Below, piece after piece: positions 1,181 to 53,739 of a stretch of DNA of 64,000 nucleotides. Below the pieces are notes generated by a model. The model was not told where the DNA came from. It did no database searches and saw only the letters and a list, made by a program, of their open reading frames with translations. How positions within the stretch are numbered: the stretch's first letter is position 1; every line of letters begins with the position of its first letter. The stretch lies in contig JACPNJ010000005.1 of NCBI GenBank assembly GCA_016185545.1, positions 4,549 to 68,548 of the forward strand, read 5' to 3'. The stretch is from Candidatus Yanofskybacteria bacterium. Lineage in GTDB: Bacteria > Patescibacteriota > Minisyncoccia > 2-02-FULL-40-12 > IGHO2-01-FULL-4-A. The translations under genes and the position numbers were made by a program.

Positions 1181-2332
1181 AACTTTACTCGCTATACTGC
1201 GTGACAAAATGCCACCGCCTAAAACTTCTTGGCCACGGTAAAAGACGGCTGATTGGCCGGGAGTGAGAGCTTTGGCATGCTTTTTAAATTTAACCAGTTT
1301 TTTTGAAACAGTAGCCGGTATTGATTTGCTGCGATATCTGATTTTAATTTGGCAATTCAATGGTAACTTTGGTATTTTACTAACCCAACTTATTTTTTCT
1401 ATTTTTGATGTCGGGTTTTTTATATTTAATTTTGAAGGCGTATTAGTAACATAGATAATATTTTTTTGGATATTCTTACTTACGACAAAATACGGTCCTT
1501 TGCCGTCTTTGATGTCTAGTCCATGCCGCTGGCCTATGGTGTAGTAATAAGCGCCATCGTGGCGTCCGATAATTTTGTCCGTATCAATATGTATGATCTT
1601 CCCCAGTCCGGATTTAATATATTTTTTTAAAAATTTTTTCATGTCCAACTGTCCGATAAAACATACGCCCTGGCTGTCTTTTTTGTCGTGATTCGGTAAT
1701 CCGAACTTTTTAGCCAGTTTTCTGACCCCAGGTTTGGTATAATCCCCTATCGGAAAAATGCAATGTTTTAGCTGGTCTTGCGTAAGTGTCCACAAGAAAT
1801 AAGATTGGTCTTTATTCGAATCTTTGGCAATCAGTAACTGGTAACTGGTAACTGGTAACTGGTTTTTCGAACGCCTAATTACTAATTTAGGATTACTAAT
1901 TACGTTTCTTAATCGCACATAGTGACCAGTAGCAATACAATCCGCTCCTTCAACCAGCGCTTTTTTCAAAAATAAGCCAAATTTGATTTCTTTATTACAC
2001 ATAACATCGGGGTTGGGTGTAATTCCAGATCTATAAGAGTCAATCATATATCGTACTACCTCTTTTTCGTATTCTTTTGAAAAATCCCAGGTTTTGAAAG
2101 GAATGCCAAGCTTGGCGCATACTTTCATAGCATCCTGCCTGTCTTGCTGCCACAGACACGAACTGTTAACTGGCGGAGTCCAGGGTTTAAAAAAAACACC
2201 AGTCACTTTGTGACCTTGTTTTTTTAGTAATGCCGCAGCGACTGAAGAATCAACGCCCCCGCTCATTGCTACGAAGACTTTAGGTTTAAGAGTGGTATTT
2301 AATTGTTTGTGTTTAGTCCAGATTCTTGCCAT
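1154..2332 (-). CDS. mnmA: tRNA-specific 2-thiouridylase MnmA
   Basis: PP-loop VAMSGGVDSSVAA, central ATGHY, DSNKDQSYFLW. Carries an extra ~14 aa relative to E. coli MnmA that includes a heptamer tandem array. Confidence 0.9.
   Translation of the reverse strand: MARIWTKHKQLNTTLKPKVFVAMSGGVDSSVAAALLKKQGHKVTGVFFKPWTPPVNSSCLWQQDRQDAMKVCAKLGIPFKTWDFSKEYEKEVVRYMIDSYRSGITPNPDVMCNKEIKFGLFLKKALVEGADCIATGHYVRLRNVISNPKLVIRRSKNQLPVTSYQLLIAKDSNKDQSYFLWTLTQDQLKHCIFPIGDYTKPGVRKLAKKFGLPNHDKKDSQGVCFIGQLDMKKFLKKYIKSGLGKIIHIDTDKIIGRHDGAYYYTIGQRHGLDIKDGKGPYFVVSKNIQKNIIYVTNTPSKLNIKNPTSKIEKISWVSKIPKLPLNCQIKIRYRSKSIPATVSKKLVKFKKHAKALTPGQSAVFYRGQEVLGGGILSRSIASKVLRRGKSQY
1835..1862. repeat. Heptamer tandem array (taactgg)x4 inside the mnmA coding sequence
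   Basis: Four perfect head-to-tail copies; encodes ..QLPVTSYQLL.. in an insertion relative to other MnmA proteins. Confidence 0.9.
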
Positions 2333-11913: not shown

Positions 11914-11920
11914 TTAAAAA

Positions 11921-12045
11921 TTCGAATATCAAAATTCGAAATTCGAAACAAATTCGAAACGTTTTAAACATTCGAATTTTGGTCATTTGATATTGTTTCG
12001 GATTTCGTGATTCGGATTCCGAGTTTTATTAGAAATTAGAAATTA
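11921..12045. repeat. MITE-like element with (aaattcgaa)n left arm and (ttcggattt)n right arm, in the groES-groEL spacer
   Basis: Imperfect inverted arms; a closely related copy lies in frame inside uvrC (25919-26035) and shares a 22-nt identical core, attcgaatatcaaaattcgaaa. Confidence 0.5.
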
Positions 12046-12059
12046 AGCAATTATCGAAT

Positions 12060-12347
12060 TCATTCGATAATTGCAAGTATATTCTCCTCTTTAGCTATCA
12101 AATACTCTTTACCGTCGATCTTAATTTCATCTGGTCCGTATTTGGTAAATAAAACCTTATCGCCTTTTTTAACATTCAACGATACTTTTTTGCCGTTTTC
12201 ATCTATGCGTCCCGAGCCCACGGCGATCACACGGCCTTTTTCTGGCCGCTCTTTATCAATAGTTTCGGGCAATATTATTCCGCCCTTCTTTTTTTCTTCA
12301 TAGAGCGGCTCTATCAGAACACGATCAGCTAACGGTTTAATACGCAT
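12060..12347 (-). CDS. groES: co-chaperonin GroES
   Basis: MRIKPLADRVLIEP...GGIILPE...VIAVG. Confidence 0.95.
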   Translation of the reverse strand: MRIKPLADRVLIEPLYEEKKKGGIILPETIDKERPEKGRVIAVGSGRIDENGKKVSLNVKKGDKVLFTKYGPDEIKIDGKEYLIAKEENILAIIE

Positions 12348-12360
12348 ACAAATAAGGTGC

Positions 12361-12431
12361 TAGGGACTAGGGACTAGTTGCTAGCTTTAAATCCGAAACC
12401 TAGAACCTAAAACCTAAAACCTAGAACCTGG
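12361..12431. repeat. Heptamer tandem arrays (tagggac x2.4; aacctag/aacctaa x5) in the groES upstream region
   Basis: Direct head-to-tail 7-mers between the CIRCE element and the groES start. Confidence 0.85.
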
Positions 12432-12434
12432 TTT

Positions 12435-12461
12435 TTAGCACTTTCAGCCCAAGAGTGCCAA
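12435..12461. promoter_or_regulatory. CIRCE-like HrcA operator (TTAGCACTT-N9-GAGTGCCAA)
   Basis: Matches the CIRCE consensus TTAGCACTC-N9-GAGTGCTAA at 16 of 18 positions, upstream of groES. Confidence 0.7.
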
Positions 12462-12487
12462 TACACCATATTTGCAAAAAACAAAAA

Positions 12488-12506
12488 CCCCGTCAAGAGC
12501 GGGGCT
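12488..12506 (-). terminator. rho-independent terminator of the protease gene
   Basis: On the minus strand: ccccgctcttgacgggg followed by tttttgtttttt. Confidence 0.6.
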
Positions 12507-12513
12507 TGTGGCA

Positions 12514-14417: not shown

Positions 14418-15419
14418 CTACTGCGTGGTCAACCCGGAGTCTTTTTCTATTGCCAGTTGTGGTAAATTTAGTTTTAGCATTCGCTCGTTGTAATCCTTAA
14501 TTATTCGCATCTCTATTGAATGCGGATGAAATTCCAGCTGTTCATCAGTAAAAATCACACGCCCGCCAGTCTGATGACTCACGGGGTTGTGCGCGATGCG
14601 CCGCGATTGATAATGGCCAAACCATTTTTCCAAAACTCTAGCAATGCCGAAGTTATCAAGTAACCATTCAGTCAACTTCACCAAGAATTGAGAAGTTGAG
14701 CTTCTCAAACGAAGCTCAACTTCTTTATTTTCAATATCCCACTCGCAAACATAATCAAGCACCCAACCATTGGCTTTCTTGAAGTCATCTATTAATTCAC
14801 TATCACTGACAAAAATTGGCACGAGATTGGCATAGGTTTGGGCATTATAAATACTTTTGTGGGGAATACTCAGCGATTTATCTGTTATGTAATGGTTGAG
14901 GCAGATTTTATTAGGCGCAATCTTGTCATTGCCACGGCGACGCACGCGCAGGAGTGATAATAAGCCGGTTATGAAAAAGCGTGTCAGCCAGATTCGGCCA
15001 TGTTTAATAATGACTAAAACGTCCAGGTCGCTTAGCTCATCCATATTTCTCATGGCTAATGACCCTGAAGCAAAAACCACTTTTACATATGGTACTAAGT
15101 GTAGCCACCAAACGGCACGCTTGGTAATCTGCCATTTTCGTTGAGCGATTTTTTCACGCTTTATTCGCAATGGCACCAGATATTCCCGGTCAAATAGAAA
15201 ATAGTAACCCTCGCGTAAGCCAATGACTCCCTCCAAAATTAATTGGTCAAGTTCTCGAGAGACAGTGGACAGTGGACAGTAGACAGTGGACAGTAGGCTA
15301 ATGCCTAGATGTTGAAAATTTATCAAGTAATTAAAAACTTCTTCCATTTTCAACGGGAAATCAAAAACATCGTAATAGGTAAGGGTTGCCAGGATATTTT
15401 TTTTAAATTCGGACACCAT
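14418..15419 (-). CDS. nucleotidyltransferase-domain protein (hypothetical)
   Basis: GSLAMRNMDELSDLDVLV Pol-beta-type NTase motif; contains two in-frame repeat insertions. Confidence 0.5.
   Translation of the reverse strand: MVSEFKKNILATLTYYDVFDFPLKMEEVFNYLINFQHLGISLLSTVYCPLSTVSRELDQLILEGVIGLREGYYFLFDREYLVPLRIKREKIAQRKWQITKRAVWWLHLVPYVKVVFASGSLAMRNMDELSDLDVLVIIKHGRIWLTRFFITGLLSLLRVRRRGNDKIAPNKICLNHYITDKSLSIPHKSIYNAQTYANLVPIFVSDSELIDDFKKANGWVLDYVCEWDIENKEVELRLRSSTSQFLVKLTEWLLDNFGIARVLEKWFGHYQSRRIAHNPVSHQTGGRVIFTDEQLEFHPHSIEMRIIKDYNERMLKLNLPQLAIEKDSGLTTQ
14691..14724. repeat. In-frame palindromic element agaagttgagcttctcaaacgaagctcaacttct
   Basis: Near-perfect 14-bp arms; same family as the elements in murC and trpS; encodes EVELRLRSSTS. 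Confidence 0.8.
15261..15295. repeat. Heptamer tandem array (gacagtg/gacagta)x5 inside the NTase coding sequence
   Basis: Five head-to-tail 7-mers encoding STVYCPLSTV. Confidence 0.9.
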
Positions 15420-24965: not shown

Positions 24966-26393
24966 ATGAAAATTAATCCCAAAATCGTGCCCAAAACACC
25001 GGGTGTTTATTTTTTCCGTGATAAACATGGGCAAATTTTGTATATCGGCAAAGCGGTTAACTTAAAAAATCGCTTGGCCAGCTATTTTAAATCTCAACTT
25101 GGCGGTCGGACCGCTAAGTTGATGGAAAAAGCCATAAGAGTTAATTGGCAAAAGACTGATTCCGAAATAGAAGCCCTGATTTTAGAATCACAACTTATTA
25201 AAAAATATCGTCCGCCGTTCAACGTAATGCTGCGTGATGATAAACAGTATTTTTTTGTTGGATTCACGAAAGATGTGTTTCCACGCATCTTCTTGACTCA
25301 TCAACCGTTTGATTGTCGACGCTTAAAAAATTCAAAATCTAAATTTCAAAATTCAAATAATCTAAAACCTGATTTCGTTGGTCCATTCACTGATGGAAAT
25401 GCGCTAAGGATAACCTTGCGACTTCTGCGCCGCATATTTCCCTATTGCACTTGCAAGCAAAAGCATAATAATTATTGTTTGAATTATCATATTGGGAAAT
25501 GTTTGGGGTTTTGCTGTCTGAAAGATCAGAATCTAGAATCTAGAAAGCAGAATCTAGAATCATATAAGAAAAATGCCAGGGCGATAAAAGATATATTGAC
25601 AGGCAAGCGAAGCAGTTTGATAAAAAGATTTAAAAAAGAAATGCTGGAACTTGGCAAAAAACATGATTTTGAAAAAGCGATTGAATTACGCGATAAAATT
25701 ACGAAACTGAAAAAAGTTTTTGAGAATGCCCGCATCATTCTAGATTCCAAAAACAGGTCTACAGACAAAGATGCTTTAAAAAACTTAGCCAAAATTATCG
25801 GCACAAAATATATCCCAAAGCGAATAGAGGGTTATGATATTTCTAATATCCAAGGCGAATTTGCTACTGGTGCAATGGTCGTTTTTGTTAACGGCCGGCC
25901 TGATAAAAGCCAATACCGTAGGTTTAAAATTCGAAATTCGAATATCAAAATTCGAAACAAATCCAAAATTCAAAATTCAAAATCACAAAAGGTTTCGGAT
26001 TTCAGATTTCATGCTTCGGATTTCCGCTCTGTCGGAGATACGGCAATGTTGCGTGAAATATTAACTCGTCGGTTTAATCATCCGGAATGGCCACGGCCGG
26101 ATTTAATAATCGTAGACGGCGGTAGGGCACAACTAAATGTTGCAGCTAAAATAATCTATGGACATCGCAAGACCATAGGTCTTGCGATGACGGAAAATCT
26201 GATTCCGATTGTTGCTTTGACCAAAAACGATAAACACCGAGGAAGCCACATTTATGTTGGCGCTAAAAAAGCGGCTGTACCGTTGAAACAGTTACCATCG
26301 GCGGTTAGAAATCTGATTCTTCAAGTTGATTCAGAGACCCACAGGTTCGCGATTAGTTATTACAAAAAATTGCACAGAAAATTGGGCAAATAA
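24966..26393 (+). CDS. uvrC: excinuclease ABC subunit C, short form lacking the C-terminal (HhH)2
   Basis: GIY-YIG (GVYFFRDKHGQILYIGKAVNLKNR), Cys cluster, UVR domain, RIEGYDISNIQG/IIVDGGRAQL endonuclease domain; ends at 475 aa. Confidence 0.85.
   Translation: MKINPKIVPKTPGVYFFRDKHGQILYIGKAVNLKNRLASYFKSQLGGRTAKLMEKAIRVNWQKTDSEIEALILESQLIKKYRPPFNVMLRDDKQYFFVGFTKDVFPRIFLTHQPFDCRRLKNSKSKFQNSNNLKPDFVGPFTDGNALRITLRLLRRIFPYCTCKQKHNNYCLNYHIGKCLGFCCLKDQNLESRKQNLESYKKNARAIKDILTGKRSSLIKRFKKEMLELGKKHDFEKAIELRDKITKLKKVFENARIILDSKNRSTDKDALKNLAKIIGTKYIPKRIEGYDISNIQGEFATGAMVVFVNGRPDKSQYRRFKIRNSNIKIRNKSKIQNSKSQKVSDFRFHASDFRSVGDTAMLREILTRRFNHPEWPRPDLIIVDGGRAQLNVAAKIIYGHRKTIGLAMTENLIPIVALTKNDKHRGSHIYVGAKKAAVPLKQLPSAVRNLILQVDSETHRFAISYYKKLHRKLGK
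25528..25562. repeat. Heptamer array (agaatct-like x5) inside uvrC
   Basis: agaatct agaatct agaaagc agaatct agaatca; encodes QNLESRKQNLES. Confidence 0.8.
25919..26035. repeat. MITE-like aattcga/ttcggatt element inserted in frame in uvrC
   Basis: Same family as 11921-12045; encodes RNSNIKIRNKSKIQNSKSQKVSDFRFHASDFRS, which is absent from E. coli UvrC at this position. Confidence 0.5.
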
Positions 26394-27477: not shown

Positions 27478-27516
27478 TTTGCAGTCCACAGTTGTCAGTA
27501 AACAGTTAATATCTTT

Positions 27517-27548
27517 TATAAACTGTGAACTGTAAACTGTGAACTTTT
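27517..27548. repeat. Heptamer array (aactgtg/aactgta) downstream of secG
   Basis: aactgtg aactgta aactgtg aactttt. Confidence 0.8.
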
Positions 27549-29547: not shown

Positions 29548-29631
29548 GCTCGGGTGGTGAAATTGGCAGACACGTTAGCTTCAGGAGCTAATGGGAGCAA
29601 TCCCGTGGGAGTTCAAATCTCCCCCCGAGCA
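29548..29631 (+). tRNA. tRNA-Leu (anticodon CAG), type II with long variable arm
   Basis: Acceptor GCTCGGG/CCCGAGC, anticodon arm TTAGC-ttCAGga-GCTAA, variable-arm hairpin GGGAgcaaTCCC, T-arm GGGAG-ttcaaat-CTCCC; CCA not encoded. Confidence 0.85.
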
Positions 29632-29980
29632 CAATTGAACGAAGTGAAATTGGGAGTGGGGAGCAACACGCCTGCGCGTGTTGCGTGGAGATGAGAACGC
29701 CGGAGCGATGTTTGACGAGCAATCGGTGAGTCAAACCGCGAGGAGGTGGCTAGACTAAATTAGCGGAAGCTAATTTAAGTCAAAGCCAAATCTCCCCCCG
29801 AGCACAATTGAACGAAGTGAAATTGGGAGTGGGGAGCAACACGCCTGCGCGTGTTGCGTGGAGATGAGAACGCCGGAGCGATGTTTGACGAGCAATCGGC
29901 GAGTCAAACCGCGAGGAGGTGGCTAGACTAAATTAGCGGAAGCTAATTTAAGTCAAAGCCAAATCTCCCCCCGAGCACAA
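29615..29980. repeat. Tandem 173-bp direct repeats (2 full copies plus a 20-bp partial) beginning inside the tRNA-Leu 3' end
   Basis: Units at 29615-29787 and 29788-29960 differ by 1 nt; the partial copy at 29961-29980 abuts the ATG of the downstream ORF. Confidence 0.85.
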
Positions 29981-34054: not shown

Positions 34055-35368
34055 TCACAGCGATCCTTTTATTTCCGAAAGCTTCTCTTCGAGAAGCTTT
34101 TTTGTTTTTGCTTCCACCACTAACCGCAAAACTGGTTCGGTATTTGACGGCCTGAAATTGAACCACCAATCGGGATATTCCACCATTATCCCATCCAGTT
34201 CATCAATTTTCCCGTCTTTATATTTTTCCTTAAGTTTTACGAAAACTTGTTCCTTGTTCCATGTTTCATGTTTTGCGATATTAATTTCTCCGGAATTAAA
34301 CCAAGTTCTAAATTGTTCGGTTAATTCCCGAATATTCTTCCCGCTCTTATTTATTATTTTTAACAGCCGCAACATAACTAGAAATGGCATTTCATTGTAG
34401 TTGGTCTCTTTGAAATAAATATGACCCGATAATTCACCACCGATATCAGCATCGTATTTTACTATATTTTCCCGTATAAAAGTCCTGCCATTTTTGGAAT
34501 GAATCGCCTTAATTCCCCACTCTTTAAATTTTTCCAGCACTCCCCTTGAAAATCTCCAATCGTATATTACTTTGGGTTTTGTCCAAAATTTAATACCGCT
34601 TTGTACCAATAAACCGATAACGTATTCGGAATGTATCGGTTTCGCCGCGGAATCAAAAATATAAATTCTGTCGGCGTCTTCGTCAAAGCCAAAAGATAAA
34701 TCGTATTGCTCGTTTATGCTTATAATGCCGGTTTTTTTAACCAATGACTCAAGCTCGTCGGCGATAGTGGCTTGCGGTTCTATCTTTACTCTTACGGCAT
34801 TTGAATCGCGAACATTCCAGGATGATTTTTTAATTATAAAATCAGTATAGGAGTCAATGAGTTTTTGCCGGTCTTGTTTAATTAACTTACCGCCGTACCT
34901 GGATACTTCAAAGTTTTTATTTTCAGTTAAAATAACTTTAATTTTTTCCAAACCGGAATTCAGCCCCACAATAACACCACCCTCGCCGAAAACTTTGAAT
35001 CCTCCGTACTGCGGGCCGAGATGTGAAGCCGTCAGCATAACTCCGCCATTAACGCCAAGTTTTTTAAGGGCAAAATTAAAAAGCGGGGTTGAGGCCAATC
35101 CTATAAATTCAACATCCGCGCCAACGCTTGTAATGCCCTTGACCAGCGCTTGGGCCAGTTTTTCTGAAAATTGGCGGCTGCCATAGCCTATAAGAAATAT
35201 CCGTTTGTTGATGTATTTGACCAGCGCTTGGCCGAGTTTGAATGCAAAATCCTCATCAAAATCACGGCCGTAAATGCCGCGGATATCATAGGCTCTAAAG
35301 ATTTCCGGATTAAAGTTCACTGCGCAGAAATTGTTGAATAATCTAGCATATGCTAGATTATTCAACAA
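34055..35368 (-). CDS. phosphoglucomutase/phosphomannomutase family protein
   Basis: GFDEDADR Mg-binding, GGELSGHIYF sugar-binding and RPSNTEP phosphate-binding motifs. The start is uncertain: the six-frame TTG start lies in a palindrome, and GTG at 35320 is an alternative. Confidence 0.8.
   Translation of the reverse strand: MLNNLAYARLFNNFCAVNFNPEIFRAYDIRGIYGRDFDEDFAFKLGQALVKYINKRIFLIGYGSRQFSEKLAQALVKGITSVGADVEFIGLASTPLFNFALKKLGVNGGVMLTASHLGPQYGGFKVFGEGGVIVGLNSGLEKIKVILTENKNFEVSRYGGKLIKQDRQKLIDSYTDFIIKKSSWNVRDSNAVRVKIEPQATIADELESLVKKTGIISINEQYDLSFGFDEDADRIYIFDSAAKPIHSEYVIGLLVQSGIKFWTKPKVIYDWRFSRGVLEKFKEWGIKAIHSKNGRTFIRENIVKYDADIGGELSGHIYFKETNYNEMPFLVMLRLLKIINKSGKNIRELTEQFRTWFNSGEINIAKHETWNKEQVFVKLKEKYKDGKIDELDGIMVEYPDWWFNFRPSNTEPVLRLVVEAKTKKLLEEKLSEIKGSL
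35331..35368. promoter_or_regulatory. 38-bp perfect palindrome between the divergent pmm-like and murC genes
   Basis: ttgttgaataatctagcat|atgctagattattcaacaa; overlaps the annotated TTG-start N-terminus of the pmm ORF. Confidence 0.45.
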
Positions 35369-37906: not shown

Positions 37907-38494
37907 TTGAAAATATCCGGGGCTATTATGAACTTTGATAACTTATCTAGTGAGGAATTAAAAAAATTACTCACCATGGGTCGAACATCCGGTAAAAGAA
38001 TGGCTTTTGAATTTTGGCTCAAGCACATAGAACTAATCGCTCCCAGGGAAACTGGCATAGGCAAAGACCAGCAGCATTACACGGCAAGATTCTTAACACG
38101 GTTTTCTCTGGTTTCAACCACACATTCAATGTTCCACTTTCCTACTTTCATGAGTTTGGCGCAAATTTATGACGAATTCGTGCAGGATATTGAAAACCAG
38201 TATTCACCGGAACCCATGGAAATAGCCGGTTACCAAACTTTACTGCTTGGCGGGTTTTATCTGAAAGCCGCAAGTAAACATTACAACATGGAAGACATAC
38301 GAAAAATGGGCGAATTATTTTTCACCCGCGGAGCAATCGGCAAAAGAAAATCCGTAATCAAAAAAATGGCTCATAATTTTAGCCGATGGCAAAATACGCT
38401 TTGTTATCTTGAATGGTATTTAAGAAATGAAAGATTAGTCATTCAAAAAGCAGAAAAACCCGACGAGCCCCTCATCAAAATCATCCCCCGCTAG
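37907..38494 (+). CDS. hypothetical protein adjacent to the DGR
   Basis: ORF only; its stop overlaps the RT stop by 4 bp (convergent). Confidence 0.35.
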   Translation: MKISGAIMNFDNLSSEELKKLLTMGRTSGKRMAFEFWLKHIELIAPRETGIGKDQQHYTARFLTRFSLVSTTHSMFHFPTFMSLAQIYDEFVQDIENQYSPEPMEIAGYQTLLLGGFYLKAASKHYNMEDIRKMGELFFTRGAIGKRKSVIKKMAHNFSRWQNTLCYLEWYLRNERLVIQKAEKPDEPLIKIIPR

Positions 38495-39501
38495 GGGGAT
38501 TTATATTTTAAAATTTCGGCTTTTAGTTCGTTGGAATTTCCGTGGCTCAAAAGGCCTAGATACGATTCTATTGCCGCAATGTCAGGATTTGATTTAAGTT
38601 TTTTTAACATTCTTCTCTTTGTTGTTGTTCTCAATATTCTGTGGTCTGGAAAATTCACCCACCCCAGAAAATCAACACCCGAATTAATGGTTTTTATGAA
38701 AATTTTACCGGGATGTAATTCTAGTTTAAGATTTTCGGATAAAAAAATCTGAATAGGGTTGATTATACCTTTAAGCCAGGCTTTGTAGGGTGAAATTATT
38801 ACAAAGTCGTCTGAATATCTGACATAGTATTTAGCCTTGAGTTTGTGCTTAACAAACTGGTCAAACTTGTTCATATAGATATTTACGAAAAGCTGTGATG
38901 TTAAGTTACCAAGCGGCAAGCCAACGCCTATTTTCTTGGACGAGAAACTTTTAATGATTTGGTTAAGAAGCCACAAAATATCCTTGTCCGGTATGTTCTC
39001 AACCAAAATTTTTTTCAGTACTTCATGGTCAATATTTTTAAAGAATTTCTTGATATCACACTTTAATATCCAACAAGTGCGAGTATTGTTTTTATTGGCT
39101 TTGTGGGCAAAACTCCTGAAACGGTTTATTGCTTTATGAGTTCCTTTGCCGACTCTGCACGAGAATGAATCGGGAATAAACACTCGGTCAAGGAACGGAC
39201 AAAGTTGCCTACAGACGGCATGGTGAATCAAACGGTCCCTTACTGGCGATTTGTGTATTTGCCTTGGTTTGGGGTCATTGATACGAAAAGATTGATATTT
39301 GCCGTGCTTATAAGTTTTGCCCATCAATTCATGGTGAAGTTCGATAATATTGTCCATCAAATTCATACTGAATTTTTGGACATCTTTCTTTTTGCGCTTT
39401 CCTTTCAAAAATTCTTGCCAAGAATGAAGCAGATTGTCTATACTTACAACATCGTAAAAACAAACACAAAAACCACCTTTATGCCCCCCCCCCAACAACA
39501 A
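38491..39501 (-). CDS. diversity-generating retroelement reverse transcriptase
   Basis: N-terminal IDNLLHSWQEFLKGKRKKKDV, SFSCRVGKGTHKAINR, DGR-specific GLPLGNLTSQLFVNIYMN, YVRYSDDFVI (YxDD). The start is ambiguous: TTG in the given frame, or an ATG if the G-tract is 9 long. Confidence 0.85.
   Translation of the reverse strand: MLLGGGHKGGFCVCFYDVVSIDNLLHSWQEFLKGKRKKKDVQKFSMNLMDNIIELHHELMGKTYKHGKYQSFRINDPKPRQIHKSPVRDRLIHHAVCRQLCPFLDRVFIPDSFSCRVGKGTHKAINRFRSFAHKANKNNTRTCWILKCDIKKFFKNIDHEVLKKILVENIPDKDILWLLNQIIKSFSSKKIGVGLPLGNLTSQLFVNIYMNKFDQFVKHKLKAKYYVRYSDDFVIISPYKAWLKGIINPIQIFLSENLKLELHPGKIFIKTINSGVDFLGWVNFPDHRILRTTTKRRMLKKLKSNPDIAAIESYLGLLSHGNSNELKAEILKYKSP
39484..39493. repeat. C10 (+ strand) / G10 homopolymer at the overlapping 5' ends of RT and avd
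   Basis: Read directly from the sequence. A 9-nt tract would give avd an ATG start at 39481 and RT an ATG start at 39517. Confidence 0.9.
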
Positions 39502-39502
39502 T

Positions 39503-39850
39503 TTGTCGATTATTCATGGTTTTATTGAATTATACAAAGTCTGGCAAAAAATATTTCCCCACTTTCCGACCACCTCCAGACACACGCTCGGATACAGAAT
39601 AGATAATCTTCTCGTGGAAATAGCTGAATTATTGTTTCTGGCGCAATTTGCAACCGGCAATCTTAAGTTATCTCTGGTTGAAAAAACATCACAGAAACTA
39701 GATACGATAAAATTCCTGTTAAGGTTGGCTTGGGAAGTTGAATCTATGGAAGAAAAGAAATATATAATTTTGTCTGAATATCTGCAAAACATTGGGAAAC
39801 AACTTGGCGGTTGGATAAAATATATAAGAAAAGAAAACTCTCCGCGTTGA
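39503..39850 (+). CDS. avd: DGR accessory variability determinant (Avd), four-helix-bundle type
   Basis: C-terminal GKQLGGWIKYIRKEN resembles bAvd ..GRILGSWIARVNRK; IKFLLRLAWEVE resembles bAvd LRFWLRFLA; 115 aa. It lies on the strand opposite to RT, TR and the target gene. Confidence 0.7.
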   Translation: MSIIHGFIELYKVWQKIFPHFPTTSRHTLGYRIDNLLVEIAELLFLAQFATGNLKLSLVEKTSQKLDTIKFLLRLAWEVESMEEKKYIILSEYLQNIGKQLGGWIKYIRKENSPR

Positions 39851-39866
39851 GCAGAGAGAAACAGAG

Positions 39867-40007
39867 ATAGTTTCGAGGCAGAACGAACACGAAGCGATAG
39901 TCAGAATCAAAGACGTTGTCGGGATTGCCGTAATACGCGTTCAACCAAGGTTCGCCATCGTTACGATTCACATCGAACACGTTCAGGTTGCCGTCGGAGT
40001 CAGTAAT
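39867..40007 (-). repeat. DGR template repeat (TR), template strand minus
   Basis: Aligns to 40261-40401 at an offset of 394 bp. All 16-17 mismatches are T on the + strand, which is A on the TR coding strand; there are no other mismatches in 133 bp. Confidence 0.85.
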
Positions 40008-40197
40008 GTATGGCATACCGTCTATACCACCACCCCTTGAGTTTTCTCAGGGTTGAATCTAATTTGATATCTAAATCATACCCTAGTACACCACACCAAG
40101 TATGTCTGTTTTTTTTTGAGGCCGCTCAAAGCCTTCTAATTTTGACCGTGAGCATGTCGCCGTATCTATAATATAACTTATTTCCGAAATAAAAAAG

Positions 40198-40230
40198 GGT
40201 CAGTCAATGATAAAAATATTGACCGACCCA
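40198..40230 (-). terminator. hairpin plus U-run downstream of the VR/target gene
   Basis: Minus strand: gggtcggtcaat..attgactgaccc followed by ttttttatttcgg. Confidence 0.5.
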
Positions 40231-40260
40231 GAAACCAAGCAACAAGAATCTGAGAGATCC

Positions 40261-40401
40261 TTACTTGCGAGGCAGAACGAACACGAAGCGATAGACAGAA
40301 ACAAAGACGCTGTCGGGACAGCCGCAAAACGCGCCCAACCAAGGTTCGCCATCGAAACGATTCACAACGAACACGCGCAGGCTGCCGTCGGAGTCAGTAA
40401 G
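40261..40401 (-). repeat. DGR variable repeat (VR) at the 3' end of the target gene
   Basis: See the TR entry. The TR-encoded peptide has Asn (AAY) where the VR peptide has S/R/F/G/C/K, and TR Asp/Tyr codons also vary. Confidence 0.85.
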
Positions 40402-40914
40402 TGGCTCCATGGCAACTACGAGACACTCTCCATCGGGCTGATCCTTGTACTGATCGCGCAGTGCCGGACCAACTTCGTTTGGACAGAGTTGACCGCCGAC
40501 CTCAACTATCCTGGCACAGATGTCATCATACCGGGTACTCTTCTTGAAACCGAGTTCAGCAACCGACATGACACACAAATCCACTTCAATCTCTGCCTGC
40601 GAGATGGAGATTTTGTGGAGAATCTGCTGTGCCCAATCACCGATTCGGGTAGTACCTCCACGCTTCAGGGCACTCGCGTAAGCCTTCGGGGTCTTGTGAA
40701 GGCCCAGTCTGATGGTCCCCCAAACCTTCAGCACTGGCAAAAGCCCAAGAAACTTCTGGAAGACATCTCTGACAGGCAAAGTATTTGACTTGATTGCCCG
40801 AGCCAGGTCTGATAGATACCCGCTGTGCAGTGTGTTCATCTCCTCACCGGAGAGCTTCTGCTGATCCAGCAGATTAAGTGTCTGCTGGGCATGACCAAAA
40901 GTTGCATTGCTCAT
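40261..40914 (-). CDS. DGR target protein (217 aa) with C-terminal variable region
   Basis: AGGAGG RBS; GC content higher than its surroundings; C-terminus ..DGEPWLGAFCGCPDSVFVSVYRFVFVLPRK is VR-encoded; no signal peptide. Confidence 0.8.
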   Translation of the reverse strand: MSNATFGHAQQTLNLLDQQKLSGEEMNTLHSGYLSDLARAIKSNTLPVRDVFQKFLGLLPVLKVWGTIRLGLHKTPKAYASALKRGGTTRIGDWAQQILHKISISQAEIEVDLCVMSVAELGFKKSTRYDDICARIVEVGGQLCPNEVGPALRDQYKDQPDGECLVVAMEPLTDSDGSLRVFVVNRFDGEPWLGAFCGCPDSVFVSVYRFVFVLPRK

Positions 40915-44764: not shown

Positions 44765-45757
44765 TCACCTTCGTTCCTTAACCTCAACTAACGGCCATGT
44801 GCCCCAGTCACCTTTTTTAAGTATCCCCTCCTTACTCCCCACCTTCGTTACCACCGACGAGGAATTCGCCGTGGCAAACTGCATCGCTTTCTTAATGTCT
44901 CCGCTCCTCATATATTCTGCTACAAATCCTGAATTATAGGCATCTCCTGCTCCAGTCCGTTCAATGATCGGCGAGTCCGGCACCCCGGCAGAATAAAAAA
45001 CATCTTTGGCAAAAACTTTTGAGCCATTGTGTCCATCGGTCAATATAACCATGCCGCAACAGGTCAGTGATAACTTTTTTAATGTTTCCTCAACTTCTTC
45101 GGGTTTCGTACCGACCAACTGCGCGCCTTCTTCTTTATTCACCGCGAAAATATCAATATGCTTCAGGAGCGGCTCTAGTTTTTCAAAACCAAGTTCTAAT
45201 TCTTTGCCTCCGGGATTACAGGCAATTTTAATATTATTTTTTACAGCATGATTAACCAGCGCTTCAAATAAATCGTAATGCCCGCCAAGAGAATCAATAT
45301 AAAACCATTTAGCCTTTAATTTGCTAAAAGGTATATTTTTTACATCAAAATGCTGGCCCTCGCCCTTGTAGCTTAAAATTGTCCTCTCAGCATTAGGATT
45401 CATTAAAATCACGGAATAAGCAGTGCTGTCGTCACCATGAACCTGAAATAATGGTTCTATTTTTTCTTTTTTAAGTTCTTCGATTATCTCTTTGCCGGTC
45501 ATATCGTTACCAATAACCCCGACACAGGCAGCTTTAAATCCTTGCCGCCCAAACGTAACCGCTGAATTTGTTCCCCCGCCACCAGTAGTAAAAACAATTT
45601 CTTTTATACTAAGCTTGGAACCAAGCGAAAAACATTGTTCAACGCCAGTCGGCGAATCGGCATGTTTGCGCAATTCAACACCCTCCATTTTGAGAAAAAC
45701 GTCTCTAGTCGCCGAACCGATTGTAATAATGTCATACATAGAAAATTCAAAACTCAA
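44765..45757 (-). CDS. PfkB-family carbohydrate kinase (ribokinase-like)
   Basis: ERTGAGDAYNSGF DTxGAGD motif; GG dipeptide near the N-terminus. Confidence 0.8.
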   Translation of the reverse strand: MSFEFSMYDIITIGSATRDVFLKMEGVELRKHADSPTGVEQCFSLGSKLSIKEIVFTTGGGGTNSAVTFGRQGFKAACVGVIGNDMTGKEIIEELKKEKIEPLFQVHGDDSTAYSVILMNPNAERTILSYKGEGQHFDVKNIPFSKLKAKWFYIDSLGGHYDLFEALVNHAVKNNIKIACNPGGKELELGFEKLEPLLKHIDIFAVNKEEGAQLVGTKPEEVEETLKKLSLTCCGMVILTDGHNGSKVFAKDVFYSAGVPDSPIIERTGAGDAYNSGFVAEYMRSGDIKKAMQFATANSSSVVTKVGSKEGILKKGDWGTWPLVEVKERR

Positions 45758-45803
45758 ATTATAAATTTTAAAACAGTTTTATACTTTGAATTTTAGATTT
45801 CAT

Positions 45804-46466
45804 TTAAAATTTAAAATTTGAATTTGGTTGATTGTCAGTAGCAGCTTGCAATTTTTGAATTGCCGCTTTGATATCCTTGCTCTCCCAAATATAACTTCCT
45901 GCTACCAACATGCTTGCCCCTGCCTCAATCAGTTTAGGTGCCGTCTCCGGTGTCACCCCTCCATCTACTTCAATCGGCTTATCAGGATAATAAAAATGAA
46001 AATCTTTTATTTTTTCCACAACCGATTCCACAAATTCGCCTCCGTAAAACCCGGGCTCAACAGTCATAAAATGCACAAAATCAACTTGATCAATGTACGG
46101 TCCAATTTTATTGACCGGGGTTTGGGGATTGACCGCAATACCTATTGTTTTATCCGCCTCTTTGACCGCATCTATTACTTCTTGAGCCTTATTTGTTGCT
46201 TCAATATGGAAAATAAATTTGTCAGCTGGGGTTTCAAGCCAGCGGACAATGTGATTCTCGGGTTTTGAAACCATCAAATGAACCCCGATTTTTAAATTTG
46301 TATCCAACGACTCCACTTCTTCAAATCCCAGCATTGTCATATTAGGCACAAAAATCCCATCGGCAATATCAAGGTGAATACGTTCAACATGCGTTTCAAC
46401 TGCCAAAATTTTACTTAGCAATTCCTCTTTAGTTTTAACCAGAATTGAAGGTATTACCTCTGTCAT
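45804..46466 (-). CDS. rpe: ribulose-phosphate 3-epimerase
   Basis: IHLDIADGIFVPN, GIAVNP, VDGG. Confidence 0.85.
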   Translation of the reverse strand: MTEVIPSILVKTKEELLSKILAVETHVERIHLDIADGIFVPNMTMLGFEEVESLDTNLKIGVHLMVSKPENHIVRWLETPADKFIFHIEATNKAQEVIDAVKEADKTIGIAVNPQTPVNKIGPYIDQVDFVHFMTVEPGFYGGEFVESVVEKIKDFHFYYPDKPIEVDGGVTPETAPKLIEAGASMLVAGSYIWESKDIKAAIQKLQAATDNQPNSNFKF

Positions 46467-47455
46467 TTTATCAAATTTGGCGGGGTTCTGCCCTCTAGCG
46501 CCTCTATTATATTTGTCGCGGCAAGTTCTGCCATTTTATTGCGCGTTTCTCGCGTTGCCGAGGCAATGTGCGGCGTCAGAATTATGTTTTCTAACTTTTT
46601 CAATTCCGGCGTAATTTCCGGCTCGTATTCAAAAACATCAATGGCCGCTCCTCTTATTACCCCATTTTTTAATGCCGCCGCAAGCGCTTTTTCGTCAACT
46701 ATCGGCCCACGGGAAGTATTAATCAAATATGCCGACGGTTTCATTTTCTTGAACCGTTCTTCGTTGATAAAATGGCGGGTAGAGTCCAATAACGGCACGT
46801 GGATTGATACAAAATCGCATTGAGGCAATAATTCATCAACATTAGAAACATAAACCGCGCCGTATTCTTTTTCAAAATCAGGATTTTGTTTGGGGTCGTA
46901 ATACAAAACTTTCATGCCGAATCCTTTGACCGCGTGATATGCCACTCGTGAACCGATACGACCAAGACCAAGCACACCGAGAGTTTTGCCGGAAACATCC
47001 GTGCCAAGCAATAATTCTGGCCCCCAAGCCTTATATTTATCGGCGCGCGAGAATCTATCGGCTTCAGCAATGCGATGGGCAATAGAGAGCACTAAAGCAA
47101 AGGTATGTTCGGCTACAGTGTCAGTCAGGACGCCGGGGGTGTTAGTTACCATAACTCCTTTCTGTTTGGCCGCCCCAACATCAACATTATCAAAGCCAAC
47201 CGCGTAATTGGCAATTACTTTTAATGTTGGCAAACCGGCATCAATCACTTCGACGGTAATCTGATCAGTTAGAACCGAAAGCAAGGCATCGAAGGGTTTT
47301 CCTTCGCCCTGAGCTTGTTGAAGAACGGCAATCATTTCTTCCTGGGTTGCCGCCCGCTCCAGTGCCGCTTCGTTTACAACAACTTCGTAGCCCTTATCGT
47401 GCAGAATCTTGAGCCCAGCTTCTGGGATTGGTCTTGTGATAAATATTTTCGGCAT
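46463..47455 (-). CDS. D-isomer-specific 2-hydroxyacid dehydrogenase (glyoxylate/hydroxypyruvate reductase-like)
   Basis: GVLGLGRIGSRVA NAD-binding motif; catalytic R/E/H pattern. Confidence 0.85.
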   Translation of the reverse strand: MPKIFITRPIPEAGLKILHDKGYEVVVNEAALERAATQEEMIAVLQQAQGEGKPFDALLSVLTDQITVEVIDAGLPTLKVIANYAVGFDNVDVGAAKQKGVMVTNTPGVLTDTVAEHTFALVLSIAHRIAEADRFSRADKYKAWGPELLLGTDVSGKTLGVLGLGRIGSRVAYHAVKGFGMKVLYYDPKQNPDFEKEYGAVYVSNVDELLPQCDFVSIHVPLLDSTRHFINEERFKKMKPSAYLINTSRGPIVDEKALAAALKNGVIRGAAIDVFEYEPEITPELKKLENIILTPHIASATRETRNKMAELAATNIIEALEGRTPPNLIK

Positions 47456-51323: not shown

Positions 51324-51324
51324 A

Positions 51325-51395
51325 GGTTATAGGTTATAGGTTATAGGTTATAGCTTTATTGCATCTATAATCTATAAGCTATTACCTATCAGCTA
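51325..51395. repeat. Two heptamer arrays (ggttata x4; ctatNNN x5) between sod and grx
   Basis: Read directly from the sequence. Confidence 0.85.
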
Positions 51396-51400
51396 TCACC

Positions 51401-51637
51401 TCATTTAATTCCCAGCAGTTGGTCAATCTTCCCGCGGTCAAAACCAATAACAATCTGACCGTCTATCATAATAACCGGTACGCCCATCTGATGGGTCTTG
51501 TCTATCATTTCTTGGCGCTTGATCGGATCCTCTGCCACATCATGCTCGGTATACTCCACATCATTCTTCTTGAAGTATTCCTTAACCATCTTGCAATATG
51601 CGCACCATGGGGTTGTATAAATTTCTACTTTTGCCAT
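51401..51637 (-). CDS. glutaredoxin-like protein (CxxC)
   Basis: MAKVEIYTTPWCAYCKMVKEYF; the start is probably the internal ATG. Confidence 0.7.
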   Translation of the reverse strand: MAKVEIYTTPWCAYCKMVKEYFKKNDVEYTEHDVAEDPIKRQEMIDKTHQMGVPVIMIDGQIVIGFDRGKIDQLLGIK

Positions 51638-53375: not shown

Positions 53376-53714
53376 TTAGTAATCCCTGCCACCACCACCG
53401 TAACCGCCTCGGCCACCGCTGTAGCCGCCACGGCCACCAAACCCGCCGGTGCGCGGAGCGCGCGGCGCCATCGGTCTGGCTTCATTTACGACAATCTGTC
53501 TGCCGTCCAAATCTTGGCCATTGAACATTTCAACAGCTTTGGCGGCTTCTTCATCCGTGGACATTTCCACGAAACCGAAGCCCTTGGAACGACCGGACAT
53601 CTTGTCGGTGATAACCATCGCTGATTCTACCGTTCCGGCTTGGGAAAAGTGCTGTTTCAGCTGGTCATCAGTCGTGTTGTAGGACAAACTGCCTACATAT
53701 AACTTCTTAGCCAT
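53376..53714 (-). CDS. RRM-type RNA-binding protein with glycine-rich tail
   Basis: MAKKLYVGSLSYNTTDDQL (RNP2), KGFGFVEM (RNP1), RGG/GGY tail. The six-frame ORF starts at 53753, but the conserved start is the 53714 ATG. Confidence 0.85.
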   Translation of the reverse strand: MAKKLYVGSLSYNTTDDQLKQHFSQAGTVESAMVITDKMSGRSKGFGFVEMSTDEEAAKAVEMFNGQDLDGRQIVVNEARPMAPRAPRTGGFGGRGGYSGGRGGYGGGGRDY

Positions 53715-53739
53715 TTCACCGCGAAATATGTGCGCTTTC

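What the first reader, a model, noticed from the sequence alone, without database searches (positions are those of the whole stretch)
1835..1862. Recurrent heptamer tandem arrays in both coding and intergenic DNA
At least eight arrays of 3-5 head-to-tail 7-mers with unrelated unit sequences were found. They lie at 1835-1862 in mnmA (taactgg), 12361-12377 and 12397-12431 upstream of groES (tagggac; aacctag), 15261-15295 in the NTase gene (gacagtg), 25528-25562 in uvrC (agaatct), 27517-27548 (aactgtg), 51325-51352 (ggttata) and 51361-51395 (ctatNNN). The coding arrays keep the frame (28 bp equals a 21-bp gain over one ancestral copy; 35 bp likewise). A period of 7 regardless of unit sequence suggests a common generating mechanism, possibly mobile-element footprints, rather than selection on the sequence.
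Basis: seen in the sequence. Interest (0 to 1): 0.55.

Follow-up and report, generated by a model that had tools for sequence, protein, structure and literature searches.

The report
Heptamer tandem repeats in a CPR bacterium
This stretch of a Candidatus Yanofskybacteria (candidate phyla radiation, CPR) genome holds many short 7-base tandem repeats, a repeat class already known in other bacteria; here they often form hairpin pairs between genes or sit in frame in loops of housekeeping proteins, and some belong to a widespread palindromic element that looks mobile.

Summary
All eight listed arrays exist. Period 7 is the only over-represented repeat period in the window: 10 exact arrays against 0.13 expected. 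The same holds in about 1.2 Mb from 74 other Patescibacteria loci: 46 against 2.4 expected.

The window comes from a Candidatus Yanofskybacteria MAG. Excess heptanucleotide repeats regardless of unit are already described for many bacteria (Mrazek 2007; cyanobacterial STRR; TAACTGA repeats), so this is a new member of a known kind.

- Several "unrelated" arrays are reverse-complement partners that form long imperfect hairpins (grx-sod, secG-SBP and rpe-pfkB spacers, groES leader).
- Coding arrays sit in insertion-tolerant loops. Other lineages carry heptamer arrays with different units at the same sites, both in the MnmA beta-hairpin and in UvrC site 2.
- The arrays at 11918-12026 and 25926-26031 are copies of a dispersed palindromic element of about 105 nt with heptamer-repeat arms. 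It occurs in at least 120 metagenome contigs and lies in frame in at least 10 different housekeeping genes, like Rickettsia palindromic elements.

Most likely mechanism: unit-independent slipped-strand mispairing, filtered by selection, plus spread of palindromic elements. Transposon "footprints" are not supported. Copy-number polymorphism could not be tested because no close strain is available.

The parts
1834..1863 (-). Perfect (CAGTTAC)x4.3 array inside mnmA. It encodes QLPVTSYQL at the tip of the beta-hairpin between ATGHYVR and KDQSYFL.
   Evidence: TRF. Translation. Pfam MnmA domains. 16-residue insertion relative to E. coli MnmA (2DER). The same loop is an array hot spot in other CPR lineages.
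1875..1903 (-). Degenerate (TAATTAG)-type array in the same mnmA loop. It is partly self-complementary and pairs with the 1834-1863 array through G-U pairs.
   Evidence: TRF period 7, 63% matches. Inverted repeat 1876-1886 / 1892-1902. RNA fold of 1826-1910 on the minus strand: z = -3.1, 0 of 200 shuffles fold as well.
11918..12026 (-). Copy of the dispersed palindromic 'element A' (arms built of CGAAATT / ATTTCGG heptamers). It fills the groES-groEL spacer.
   Evidence: nhmmer E = 1.2e-9 and 5.4e-9 on the two strands against the uvrC copies. TRF 11918-11960. Palindrome 11930-11981.
12028..12045 (-). (TTCTAAT)x2.6 array just downstream of a 12-bp hairpin (12047-12074) that overlaps the groES stop codon.
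   Evidence: TRF. Hairpin listed.
12360..12429 (-). groES leader. Reading the sense strand 5' to 3': (AGGTTYT)x4.9 at 12396-12429, a loop, then (CTAGTCC)x2.6 at 12360-12377. The two arrays are partly complementary. They lie between the heat-shock operator CIRCE (12435-12461) and the ATG at 12347.
   Evidence: TRF. Sequence. Complementarity 15 of 21, 5 of 200 random places do as well. Fold. Similar (AGGTNNT)n-loop-(ANNACCT)n units just before start codons in L105, L147 and L185.
15261..15294 (-). Lone (CACTGTC)x4.9 array in the N-terminal part of a 333-aa protein of uncertain family. It encodes LLSTVYCPLSTVS.
   Evidence: TRF 92%. Translation. No inverted partner. No stable fold, z = +2.1. Arrays with closely similar CAGT-core units (CAGTGGA/CAGTGGT facing CCACTGT/TCACTGT) form an inverted pair in L087 1660-1770.
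25327..25357 (+). Degenerate (AAAATTC)x4.4 array in uvrC variable loop 'site 1'. It encodes KNSKSKFQNSN.
   Evidence: TRF. Alignment occupancy 30-50% among 120 homologues. Site-1 length ranges from 8 to 55 residues.
25528..25561 (+). (AGAATCT)x4.9 array in uvrC 'site 2'. It encodes QNLESRKQNLES.
   Evidence: TRF. Three other uvrC genes carry heptamer arrays with other units at the same site: L081 CAATTTT, L082 AATGAAC, L083 AAATATC.
25926..26031 (+). Element A copy inserted in frame in uvrC 'site 3'. Peptide: RNSNIKIRNKSKIQNSKSQKVSDFRFHASDFRS.
   Evidence: Columns almost empty in 120 homologues. About 80% identical DNA at the same site in L081 and L082, and at a different site (site 1) in L083. 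Family found in at least 120 metagenome contigs.
27483..27545 (+). Inverted pair: CACAGTT/GTCAGTA/AACAGTT facing (AACTGTG)x3.6. It forms a hairpin right after secG, followed by TTTTCT.
   Evidence: 29-nt arms, 79% complementary. 17 of 21, 0 of 200 random places do as well. RNA fold -24.9 kcal/mol, z = -5.0. The orthologous spacers in L081 and L082 hold hairpins built from other heptamers.
34246..34273 (-). Two overlapping short heptamer arrays in the linker between domains III and IV of a phosphoglucomutase/phosphomannomutase.
   Evidence: TRF. Pfam domains at residues 262-352 and 388-428, with the array at about residues 365-375. No inverted partner.
45756..45819 (-). AT-rich inverted pair (ATTTAAA x2.6 and its partner). 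It forms a hairpin between rpe and a pfkB-family kinase gene.
   Evidence: TRF. 16 of 18, 0 of 200. Fold z = -3.6. Gene identities.
51324..51401 (-). Inverted pair that fills the glutaredoxin-sod spacer. A perfect (ATAACCT)x4.3 abuts the GTG start of sod. The degenerate complementary array abuts the grx stop codon.
   Evidence: 33-nt arms, 82% complementary. 18 of 21, 0-1 of 200. Fold z = -3.3. Pfam Sod_Fe and Glutaredoxin.

Best explanation
These are heptanucleotide simple-sequence repeats of the kind already documented in many bacteria, here in a Candidatus Yanofskybacteria genome.

Shown:
- Period 7, and only period 7, is strongly over-represented, with about a hundred unrelated unit sequences.
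- This holds in the window and in many other Patescibacteria.
- Arrays survive mainly in intergenic spacers, where they often occur as reverse-complement pairs forming long imperfect hairpins.
- In genes they occur only in surface loops and linkers that tolerate insertions.
- At orthologous sites, different lineages carry arrays with different units.
- One family of arrays forms the arms of a dispersed palindromic element of about 105 nt that is also found in frame in many unrelated housekeeping genes.

Inferred:
- Arrays are born and reshaped by slipped-strand mispairing during replication or repair, with an intrinsic preference for 7-nt steps. This is the polymerase-footprint idea of Mrazek et al. 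2007.
- A mutated unit can spread through an array by further slippage. That would explain why the unit changes while the site and the period persist.
- Purifying selection removes every array that breaks a reading frame or disturbs a fold. What remains are in-frame low-complexity peptides in permissive loops.
- Inverted pairs arise by template switching between hairpin arms, by selection for the hairpin, or by insertion of ready-made palindromic elements that spread by an unknown route, as Rickettsia palindromic elements do.
For: Period-7 excess:
- Window: 10 against 0.13 expected. Mismatch-tolerant scan: 12 arrays against 0-2 at other periods.
- 74 CPR loci: 46 against 2.4 expected, with period 8 at 3 against 0.8. 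Six non-CPR loci: 0.

Unit diversity: 98 classes among 205 arrays.

Host: UvrC is 100% identical to an NCBI Candidatus Yanofskybacteria MAG protein.

Placement:
- 41% of arrays are in or touching the 12% of the window that is intergenic.
- The MnmA array sits in a 16-residue insertion relative to the solved E. coli enzyme.
- UvrC arrays lie in variable or empty alignment columns.

Recurrence with unit turnover:
- 14 of the 46 arrays in the mnmA loci lie in the same roughly 75-nt MnmA loop, with 13 different units.
- All four uvrC genes examined have a site-2 array, each with a different unit.
- L004 and L014 share a loop of the same length, perfect in one and degenerate in the other.

Whole-unit variation among homologous copies: the right arm of element A has 2-6 units in 115 copies, with different variant units amplified in different copies.

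Hairpins. Hairpins of unrelated sequence occupy the orthologous secG-SBP spacer.

Element A:
- nhmmer E 1e-28 to 1e-29 for the four uvrC copies, E 1e-9 for the groES-groEL copy.
- At least 120 metagenome contigs.
- 19 of 80 copies lie inside long ORFs, in either orientation.
- Hosts include UvrD, TGT, LeuRS, transketolase, Dus and MPG.

Literature:
- Heptanucleotides are the commonest long SSR class in most prokaryotic genomes, and a 7-nt polymerase contact was proposed (Mrazek 2007 as summarised in PMC4679880 and PMC4692102).
- Inverted heptamer arrays occur in Xanthomonas (PMC4692102).
Against: - No strain-level data exist. The next relative of UvrC is only 60% identical, so 7-nt length polymorphism, the direct signature of slippage, was not observed at any window array.
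- The 7-nt preference itself remains unexplained.
- In-frame coding arrays need steps of three units, or compensating changes, which simple one-unit slippage does not provide.
- The conserved 105-nt element and recurring units (CTAGTCC, AAAATTC, and closely similar CAGT-core units) in unrelated genomes show that part of the pattern is inherited or transferred sequence, not local slippage.
- Hairpin folding shows no sense/antisense asymmetry, and no covariation could be obtained. So neither an RNA function nor a DNA-level one is established.
Confidence: 0.6

Rival explanations
1. All the arrays, not only the CGAAATT family, are arms or decayed remnants of small palindromic mobile elements (RPE-, REPIN- or MITE-like) that insert between and within genes. 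Period 7 would then be a property of the element family and of whatever machinery moves it.
For: - Element A is dispersed, palindromic and inserted in frame in many genes.
- Six of the window's array loci are inverted pairs.
- Units identical or closely similar to the window's (CTAGTCC identical; CAGT-core units closely similar) occur in unrelated contigs, partly as inverted pairs.
- A second small palindrome (element B) is also in frame in uvrC genes, at different sites.
Against: - 98 unit classes, most seen only once.
- Most coding arrays have no inverted partner: 40 of 44. These include 15261, 25327, 25528 and 34246 in the window.
- No transposase or RAYT in the window.
- No target-site duplication seen (by eye).
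- blastn finds no dispersed copies of the mnmA, uvrC site 2 or secG-SBP arrays.
Confidence: 0.2
2. The intergenic inverted arrays are selected cis-acting RNA or DNA structures (operon-internal stabilisers, attenuators, terminators or translation controls). The heptamer periodicity reflects recognition by a protein or a structural requirement.
For: - Hairpins fill whole spacers between co-directional genes and abut stop and start codons.
- The structure recurs at the orthologous secG-SBP spacer while the sequence is replaced.
- Fold z-scores are -3.3 to -5.0.
- TAACTGA repeats just upstream of start codons were proposed as regulator sites in Beggiatoaceae (PMC4679880).
Against: - No strand asymmetry in folding energy.
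- The consensus terminator scan does not flag these hairpins, whereas a canonical GC-rich terminator exists at 12485-12507.
- No Rfam family matches.
- The same kind of array occurs inside genes, where such a role is unlikely.
- Only 7 of 22 intergenic arrays across the CPR loci have a significant partner.
Confidence: 0.15
3. The coding arrays are contingency loci. Gain or loss of one 7-nt unit shifts the frame and reversibly switches mnmA, uvrC and other genes off and on.
For: - The unit length is not a multiple of 3.
- Perfect arrays of 4-5 copies lie inside genes.
- This is the classical role of simple-sequence repeats in host-adapted bacteria (PMC4679880 introduction).
Against: - The genes are housekeeping genes, not surface or restriction genes.
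- All are in frame here and in every homologue examined.
- Copy numbers are low.
Confidence: 0.04
4. Footprints (target-site duplications) left by repeated insertion and excision of a transposon with 7-bp target duplication. Or chance, or an assembly artefact.
For: Period 7 is independent of unit sequence, which a fixed staggered cut would give.
Against: - Up to 8.7 copies per array.
- No element and no transposase nearby.
- Bacterial excision does not normally leave stacked duplications (general knowledge).
- Chance is excluded.
- Arrays are 60 nt or shorter, i.e. shorter than typical sequencing reads (general knowledge, not checked for this MAG), and the pattern recurs in independent assemblies.
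Confidence: 0.01

Closest known systems
Long simple-sequence repeats with heptanucleotide units (Mrazek, Guo & Shah 2007 PNAS, read through PMC4679880 and PMC4692102)
   Same: Tandem 7-nt units of many different sequences. Period 7 stands out among units of 5-11 nt. Mostly intergenic. Slippage with a polymerase-linked 7-nt step was proposed.
   Different: That survey predates CPR genomes. Here many arrays are in frame inside essential genes at recurrent loops, and many are paired as inverted arrays.
Cyanobacterial STRR heptamers (Calothrix/Nostoc, Mazel 1990) and GGGAATC / GGGGAYT repeats of Xanthomonas and Nostoc (PMC4692102)
   Same: Heptamer tandem arrays in intergenic and operon-internal spacers. 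Length and sequence vary between related species at the same spacer. Some occur as inverted pairs able to form stem-loops.
   Different: Those genomes are dominated by a few G-rich units. Here there are about 100 mostly AT-rich units and no dominant one apart from the CGAAATT element. The host phylum is different.
TAACTGA direct repeats of Beggiatoaceae, Cyanobacteria and Bacteroidetes (MacGregor 2015, PMC4679880)
   Same: Heptamer arrays of 2-6 copies, often immediately upstream of start codons where Shine-Dalgarno (SD) motifs are rare, and occasionally inside ORFs at peripheral positions. The mnmA unit here (TAACTGG) differs from TAACTGA by one base.
   Different: There a single unit dominates the genome. 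Here the unit is not conserved, and the TAACTGG array is coding, not upstream of a start.
Rickettsia palindromic elements, RPE (Ogata 2000/2002, as reviewed in PMC10969869)
   Same: Palindromic repeats of about 100-150 bp, dispersed through the genome and inserted in frame in unrelated metabolic and housekeeping genes. They add a conserved peptide without destroying the ORF. The mobilising enzyme is unknown.
   Different: No sequence relationship was tested or is expected. Element A has arms made of heptamer tandem repeats whose copy number varies. It is found across many metagenomic contigs that are probably CPR, rather than in one genus.
REP/REPIN and MITE families
   Same: Short hairpin-forming dispersed repeats with inverted termini (AAATYCG ... 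CGRATTT).
   Different: No RAYT or parent IS was found in the window. No target-site duplication was seen. In-frame intragenic copies are frequent (about a quarter of copies).

Membership tests
Heptanucleotide long simple-sequence repeats (Mrazek 2007) | Head-to-tail tandem copies of a 7-nt unit | tested here: met
   TRF gives 22 period-7 rows, up to 8.7 copies.
Heptanucleotide long simple-sequence repeats (Mrazek 2007) | Longer and more frequent than composition predicts, with period 7 dominant among units of 5-11 nt | tested here: met
   10 observed against 0.13 expected; periods 6 and 8-12 at background. 46 against 2.4 in other CPR loci.
Heptanucleotide long simple-sequence repeats (Mrazek 2007) | Copy number varies between strains by whole units (slippage) | not testable with these tools
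   The nearest relative is only 60% identical in UvrC, and the exact proteins are on one contig only. Indirect support: the arms of element A vary from 2 to 6 units among 115 copies.
Cyanobacterial STRR | Characteristic units (CCCCAGT, TTGGTCA, CAACAGT; recalled from memory) in heterocystous cyanobacteria | tested here: not met
   None of these units appears among the TRF consensus units. The host is Candidatus Yanofskybacteria.
TAACTGA repeat system (MacGregor 2015) | The unit TAACTGA dominates, and arrays lie within a few nt upstream of start codons | tested here: not met
   The closest unit is TAACTGG, as a single array inside mnmA. Units are highly diverse. Arrays abutting start codons do exist but have other units (sod, groES).
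RPE-like in-frame palindromic elements | Multi-copy dispersed family | tested here: met
   Two copies in the window.
RPE-like in-frame palindromic elements | Palindromic, hairpin-forming | tested here: inconclusive
   The arms are complementary with G-U pairs and mismatches. The fold z-score is only -1.8 for the uvrC copy. RNAalifold gave no consensus pairs.
RPE-like in-frame palindromic elements | Inserted in frame in unrelated protein-coding genes that stay open | tested here: met
   19 of 80 copies lie inside ORFs of at least 150 aa, in either orientation. Ten different Pfam-identified host proteins. The same element sits at different sites of uvrC.
RPE-like in-frame palindromic elements | Sequence homology to the Rickettsia RPE families | not tested
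Membership is not claimed, only analogy.
MITE | Terminal inverted repeats plus target-site duplication plus a related autonomous IS | tested here: inconclusive
   Inverted termini are present. No duplication is evident in the flanks by eye. No transposase domain in the window's ORFs, but the window is only 64 kb of a contig of at least 339 kb.
Intrinsic terminator (for the intergenic hairpins) | Short GC-rich stem followed by a T run | tested here: not met
   The consensus scan does not report 27483-27545, nor the groES-region arrays. It does find a canonical terminator at 12485-12507. TTTTCT follows the 27483-27545 hairpin, but the stem is long, AU-rich and interrupted.
Contingency (phase-variation) locus | Out-of-frame length variants in the population | not testable with these tools
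   No reads or strain genomes. All homologues inspected are in frame.

The most novel reading that the evidence does not exclude
Parcubacteria carry a previously undescribed system of palindromic elements with heptamer-repeat arms.
- The elements spread within and between genomes and settle in frame in loops of essential proteins (MnmA, UvrC, UvrD, LeuRS, TGT, transketolase), as well as in operon spacers.
- The many 'orphan' heptamer arrays are their amplified or decayed arms.
- On this reading the 7-nt period is the signature of an unknown hairpin-directed mobilisation or synthesis machinery, not of generic polymerase slippage.
- It would be a main source of the protein-length variation and structured spacers seen in these reduced genomes.
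Probability: 0.2. Interest if true: 0.7.

Novelty: new member of a known kind. Interest (0 to 1): 0.45.

Why it matters
- CPR/Patescibacteria genomes are small and compact, yet here a repeat-generating process visibly remodels both spacers and essential proteins.
- If the arrays turn over as fast as the orthologous-site comparisons suggest, they are a cheap source of new surface peptides. They are also a source of frameshift risk in genes such as uvrC and mnmA.
- They would give ready-made strain markers for organisms that cannot be cultured.
[quoted passage not shown] That would make the phenomenon comparative rather than a Rickettsia oddity.
- None of this changes the basic classification. 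Heptamer SSR excess is a known bacterial feature whose cause (why 7?) is still open. CPR genomes with very high array density could be good material for that question.

Tried and rejected
- **Cyanobacterial origin.** My first guess was STRR in Nostocales. It is rejected: the MnmA and UvrC relatives are all Patescibacteria, and UvrC is 100% identical to a Yanofskybacteria MAG protein.
- **Strain-level polymorphism.** Exact-protein look-ups for MnmA, GroEL and UvrC found no other contig. The next UvrC relative is 60% identical.
- **RNA-level function through strand asymmetry.** Sense and antisense folding energies are mixed.
- **Covariation support for the element A hairpin.** RNAalifold returned no pairs, probably because of register slippage and high conservation.
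- **Known RNA families.** Rfam at gathering thresholds gives only the two tRNAs.
- **SD/anti-SD reading of the AGGT...ACCT hairpins.** The orientation count is too small (2 against 0). Only 9 of 44 genes have any SD-like motif. Dropped as unsupported.
- **Over-represented 'vocabulary' of units.** Apart from element A units and A-rich units, classes are mostly singletons. The CTAGTCC and CAGT-core coincidences are within what about 2,000 pairwise comparisons could give.
- **Mobilising enzyme.** No transposase, RAYT or integrase in about 70 ORFs. The only reverse transcriptase belongs to a diversity-generating retroelement (DGR) with its own template repeat (TR) and variable repeat (VR).
- **Literature.** No paper links heptanucleotide repeats or MITEs with Patescibacteria. 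Mrazek 2007 is not held and is cited through two papers that summarise it.
Full report
**Observation**

Tandem Repeats Finder reports 44 rows for the window, and 22 of them have period 7. Two of them, 1834-1863 and 51324-51353, are perfect 4.3-copy arrays.

I counted maximal exact runs for each period and compared them with second-order Markov resamplings:
- Arrays of at least two copies plus 3 nt: 10 observed against 0.13 expected at period 7.
- Periods 6 and 8 gave 0 observed against 0.5 and 0.02 expected.
- A mismatch-tolerant scan gave 12 arrays at period 7 and 0-2 at every other period from 4 to 12.

- The 12360 array has 2.6 copies, not 3-5.
- The 'NTase' label rests on a sub-threshold Pfam hit.

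**Source**

The proteins are typical of Patescibacteria.
- The best MnmA relatives in the species-representative genome collection are Yanofskybacteria and other Parcubacteria MAGs, at most 57% identical.
- The UvrC protein is 100% identical to one NCBI protein from a Candidatus Yanofskybacteria MAG on a 339-kb contig. The next relative is 60% identical.
- My first idea, cyanobacterial STRR repeats, is therefore wrong as to the organism.
- No strain-level relatives are available.

**Is it lineage-wide?**

- In 74 CPR loci fetched around mnmA (1.2 Mb), exact period-7 arrays number 46 against 2.4 expected. Period 8 gives 3 against 0.8. Six non-CPR loci have none.
- Over all CPR DNA collected (about 2.1 Mb plus the window) there are 205 arrays in 98 unit classes, most seen once.
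- This is a known phenomenon. Mrazek, Guo and Shah (2007), as summarised in PMC4679880 and PMC4692102, found heptanucleotide repeats to be the most abundant long simple-sequence repeat class in most prokaryotic genomes. They proposed that about 7 nt is the stretch that interacts with DNA polymerase and so favours slippage by that step.
- I found no paper linking such repeats to Patescibacteria.

**Anatomy between genes**

About 88% of the window is coding, yet 9 of 22 arrays lie in or touch spacers. Most intergenic arrays are not lone arrays but inverted pairs.
It fills the whole glutaredoxin-sod spacer from stop codon to GTG start.
- The 27517 array has a partner at 27483-27511.
- 45802 has a partner at 45756.
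- The two groES-leader arrays are partly complementary to each other.
- Folding gives z-scores of -3.3, -5.0 and -3.6 for the first three.
- The groES leader also holds a CIRCE operator at 12435-12461.

In two syntenic contigs from relatives (L081, L082; UvrC about 53% identical), the orthologous secG-SBP spacer also holds a long hairpin. Its arms are heptamer arrays built from quite different units. So the architecture recurs at this spacer while the sequence turns over.

I could not show what the hairpins do:
- Sense and antisense strands fold about equally well.
- The consensus terminator scan does not report them, although it finds a canonical GC-rich terminator at 12485-12507.
- Rfam finds nothing.
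- Across all CPR loci only 7 of 22 intergenic and 4 of 44 intragenic arrays have a significant inverted partner. Pairing is common in this lineage but not universal.

**Anatomy inside genes**

All host ORFs are intact.

MnmA:
- The mnmA arrays lie at the tip of the beta-hairpin between ATGHYVR and KDQSYFL, where the protein has 16 extra residues relative to E. coli MnmA (2DER).
- In 80 homologous loci this segment ranges from 27 to 82 residues.
- 14 of the 46 arrays found in those loci lie in this one roughly 75-nt loop, with 13 different units. Several further loops are visibly degenerate heptamer arrays.

UvrC:
- An alignment of 120 homologues shows four length-variable sites.
- The window has arrays at sites 1, 2 and 3.
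- At site 2 all four genes whose DNA I could read have a heptamer array, each with a different unit.

Other genes:
- The phosphoglucomutase array lies in the linker between domains III and IV.

The MnmA insertion is 48 nt and comprises two arrays. The uvrC site-2 array lies in alignment columns that most homologues also occupy, and the segment is only 2-3 residues longer than the usual length.

The simplest reading is that arrays arise everywhere and persist only in insertion-tolerant loops when the total length keeps the frame. They then evolve in place by mutation and re-homogenisation. The pair L004/L014, with loops of equal length that are perfect in one and degenerate in the other, fits this.

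**A dispersed palindromic element**

- The 28-residue insertion at uvrC site 3 (DNA 25926-26031) has almost the same peptide in several homologues that are only about 50-54% identical overall. In one homologue (P0006/L083) it sits at site 1 instead.
- The DNA copies are about 80% identical over 106 nt.
- An HMM built from them finds a second copy in the window, in the groES-groEL spacer (E 1e-9), and weaker copies in other CPR loci.
- The consensus is AAATYCGAA(AT/GC)(T/A)CGAATATCGAAATTCGAAAC, a variable loop, then GTTTCGGATTTCG(G/T)(A/G)(T/C)TTCGRATTT. In other words, two inverted arrays of CGAAATY heptamers.
- The number of right-arm units varies from 2 to 6 among 115 copies, and different variant units are amplified in different copies.
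- Nineteen of 80 copies lie inside long ORFs, in either orientation.
- Pfam identifies the hosts as UvrD, a P-type ATPase, TGT, an M16 peptidase, MPG, UvrC, LeuRS, a class-V aminotransferase, Dus and transketolase.
- This is the behaviour described for Rickettsia palindromic elements (PMC10969869).
- I saw no target-site duplication and found no transposase in the window.

**Mechanism**

The best-supported account combines three things:
- (a) Unit-independent slipped-strand mispairing with a 7-nt preference creates and reshapes arrays.
- (b) Selection confines them to spacers and permissive loops and keeps coding arrays in frame.
- (c) Palindromic arrangements arise by template switching or selection for hairpins, and in at least one family by spread of a ready-made element.

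The distribution, the unit diversity, the orthologous-site turnover, the whole-unit variation among element copies and the in-frame dispersal are shown. Slippage itself, the reason for 7, and the way the element moves are inferred.

The main rival (confidence 0.2) is that all arrays derive from such elements. It is weakened by the many singleton units and by the lack of inverted partners for most coding arrays. A cis-regulatory role for the intergenic hairpins (confidence 0.15) remains possible. Phase variation and transposon footprints are unlikely.

**Verdict**

The finding is genuine and statistically solid. As stated, though, it describes a known class of bacterial repeat in a phylum where it had apparently not been described: a new member of a known kind. 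The added value lies in three things: the inverted-pair architecture, the recurrent array hot spots in MnmA and UvrC, and the RPE-like element with heptamer arms. These deserve a genome-wide follow-up.

Noticed in passing
window 38491-40914: Complete diversity-generating retroelement (DGR). Parts: reverse transcriptase 38491-39501 (-), bAvd-like accessory gene 39503-39850 (+), template repeat 39868-40006, and variable repeat 40262-40400 at the 3' end of target gene 40261-40914 (-). All TR/VR mismatches are at adenines of the coding strand.
   Followed up: partly
window 29548-29980: tRNA-Leu(CAG) is followed by a 173-bp tandem repeat (2.1 copies, 99% identical). Each unit ends with a copy of the last 20 nt of the tRNA, so the tRNA 3' end occurs three times (29614, 29787, 29960). 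The 153-nt body is GC-rich and contains two hairpins. This looks like tandem att-site duplications from a very small integrated element. There is no Rfam match.
   Followed up: partly
window 26160-26192; L083 1291-1320 and 1489-1515: A second, much smaller palindromic insert ('element B': GGACATCGCAAGACC-ATA-GGTCTTGCGATGAC, a 12-bp perfect stem) lies in frame in uvrC and encodes GHRKTIGLAMT. Related copies encoding RHRKSxxLAMS sit at other sites of uvrC in other CPR genomes.
   Followed up: partly
L035, L053, L075, L057 (mnmA loop, about 400-520 nt into the gene): The same MnmA hairpin tip also hosts other in-frame palindromic inserts of 70-80 nt without heptamer periodicity, for example AAAATTCAAAGAATTTTCCC...GGGACC...AAAATTCTTTGAATTTT, shared by three distant genomes.
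   Followed up: no
window, 44 gene starts: Only 9 of 44 genes have any Shine-Dalgarno-like motif within 20 nt of the start. Several have a TATAAT-like box 5-10 nt upstream of the start codon (for example 36797, 46463-47455, 48678, 54245-55093). This suggests many leaderless or SD-independent mRNAs.
   Followed up: no
window 12435-12461 (-) and 12485-12507 (-): A CIRCE heat-shock operator (TTGGCACTC-N9-AAGTGCTAA) lies upstream of groES. It is preceded by a canonical GC-rich intrinsic terminator of the upstream gene.
   Followed up: partly
window 53376-53753 (-): Small RRM_1 RNA-binding protein whose tail is encoded by a 21-nt tandem repeat (53392-53439, 2.3 copies).
   Followed up: no
window 24966-26393: UvrC is only 475 aa. 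It matches GIY-YIG, UVR and the RNase H-like domain, with no further Pfam domain matched (e.g. no HhH). Homologues in CPR range from 377 to 525 aa, mainly through the four insertion sites.
   Followed up: partly
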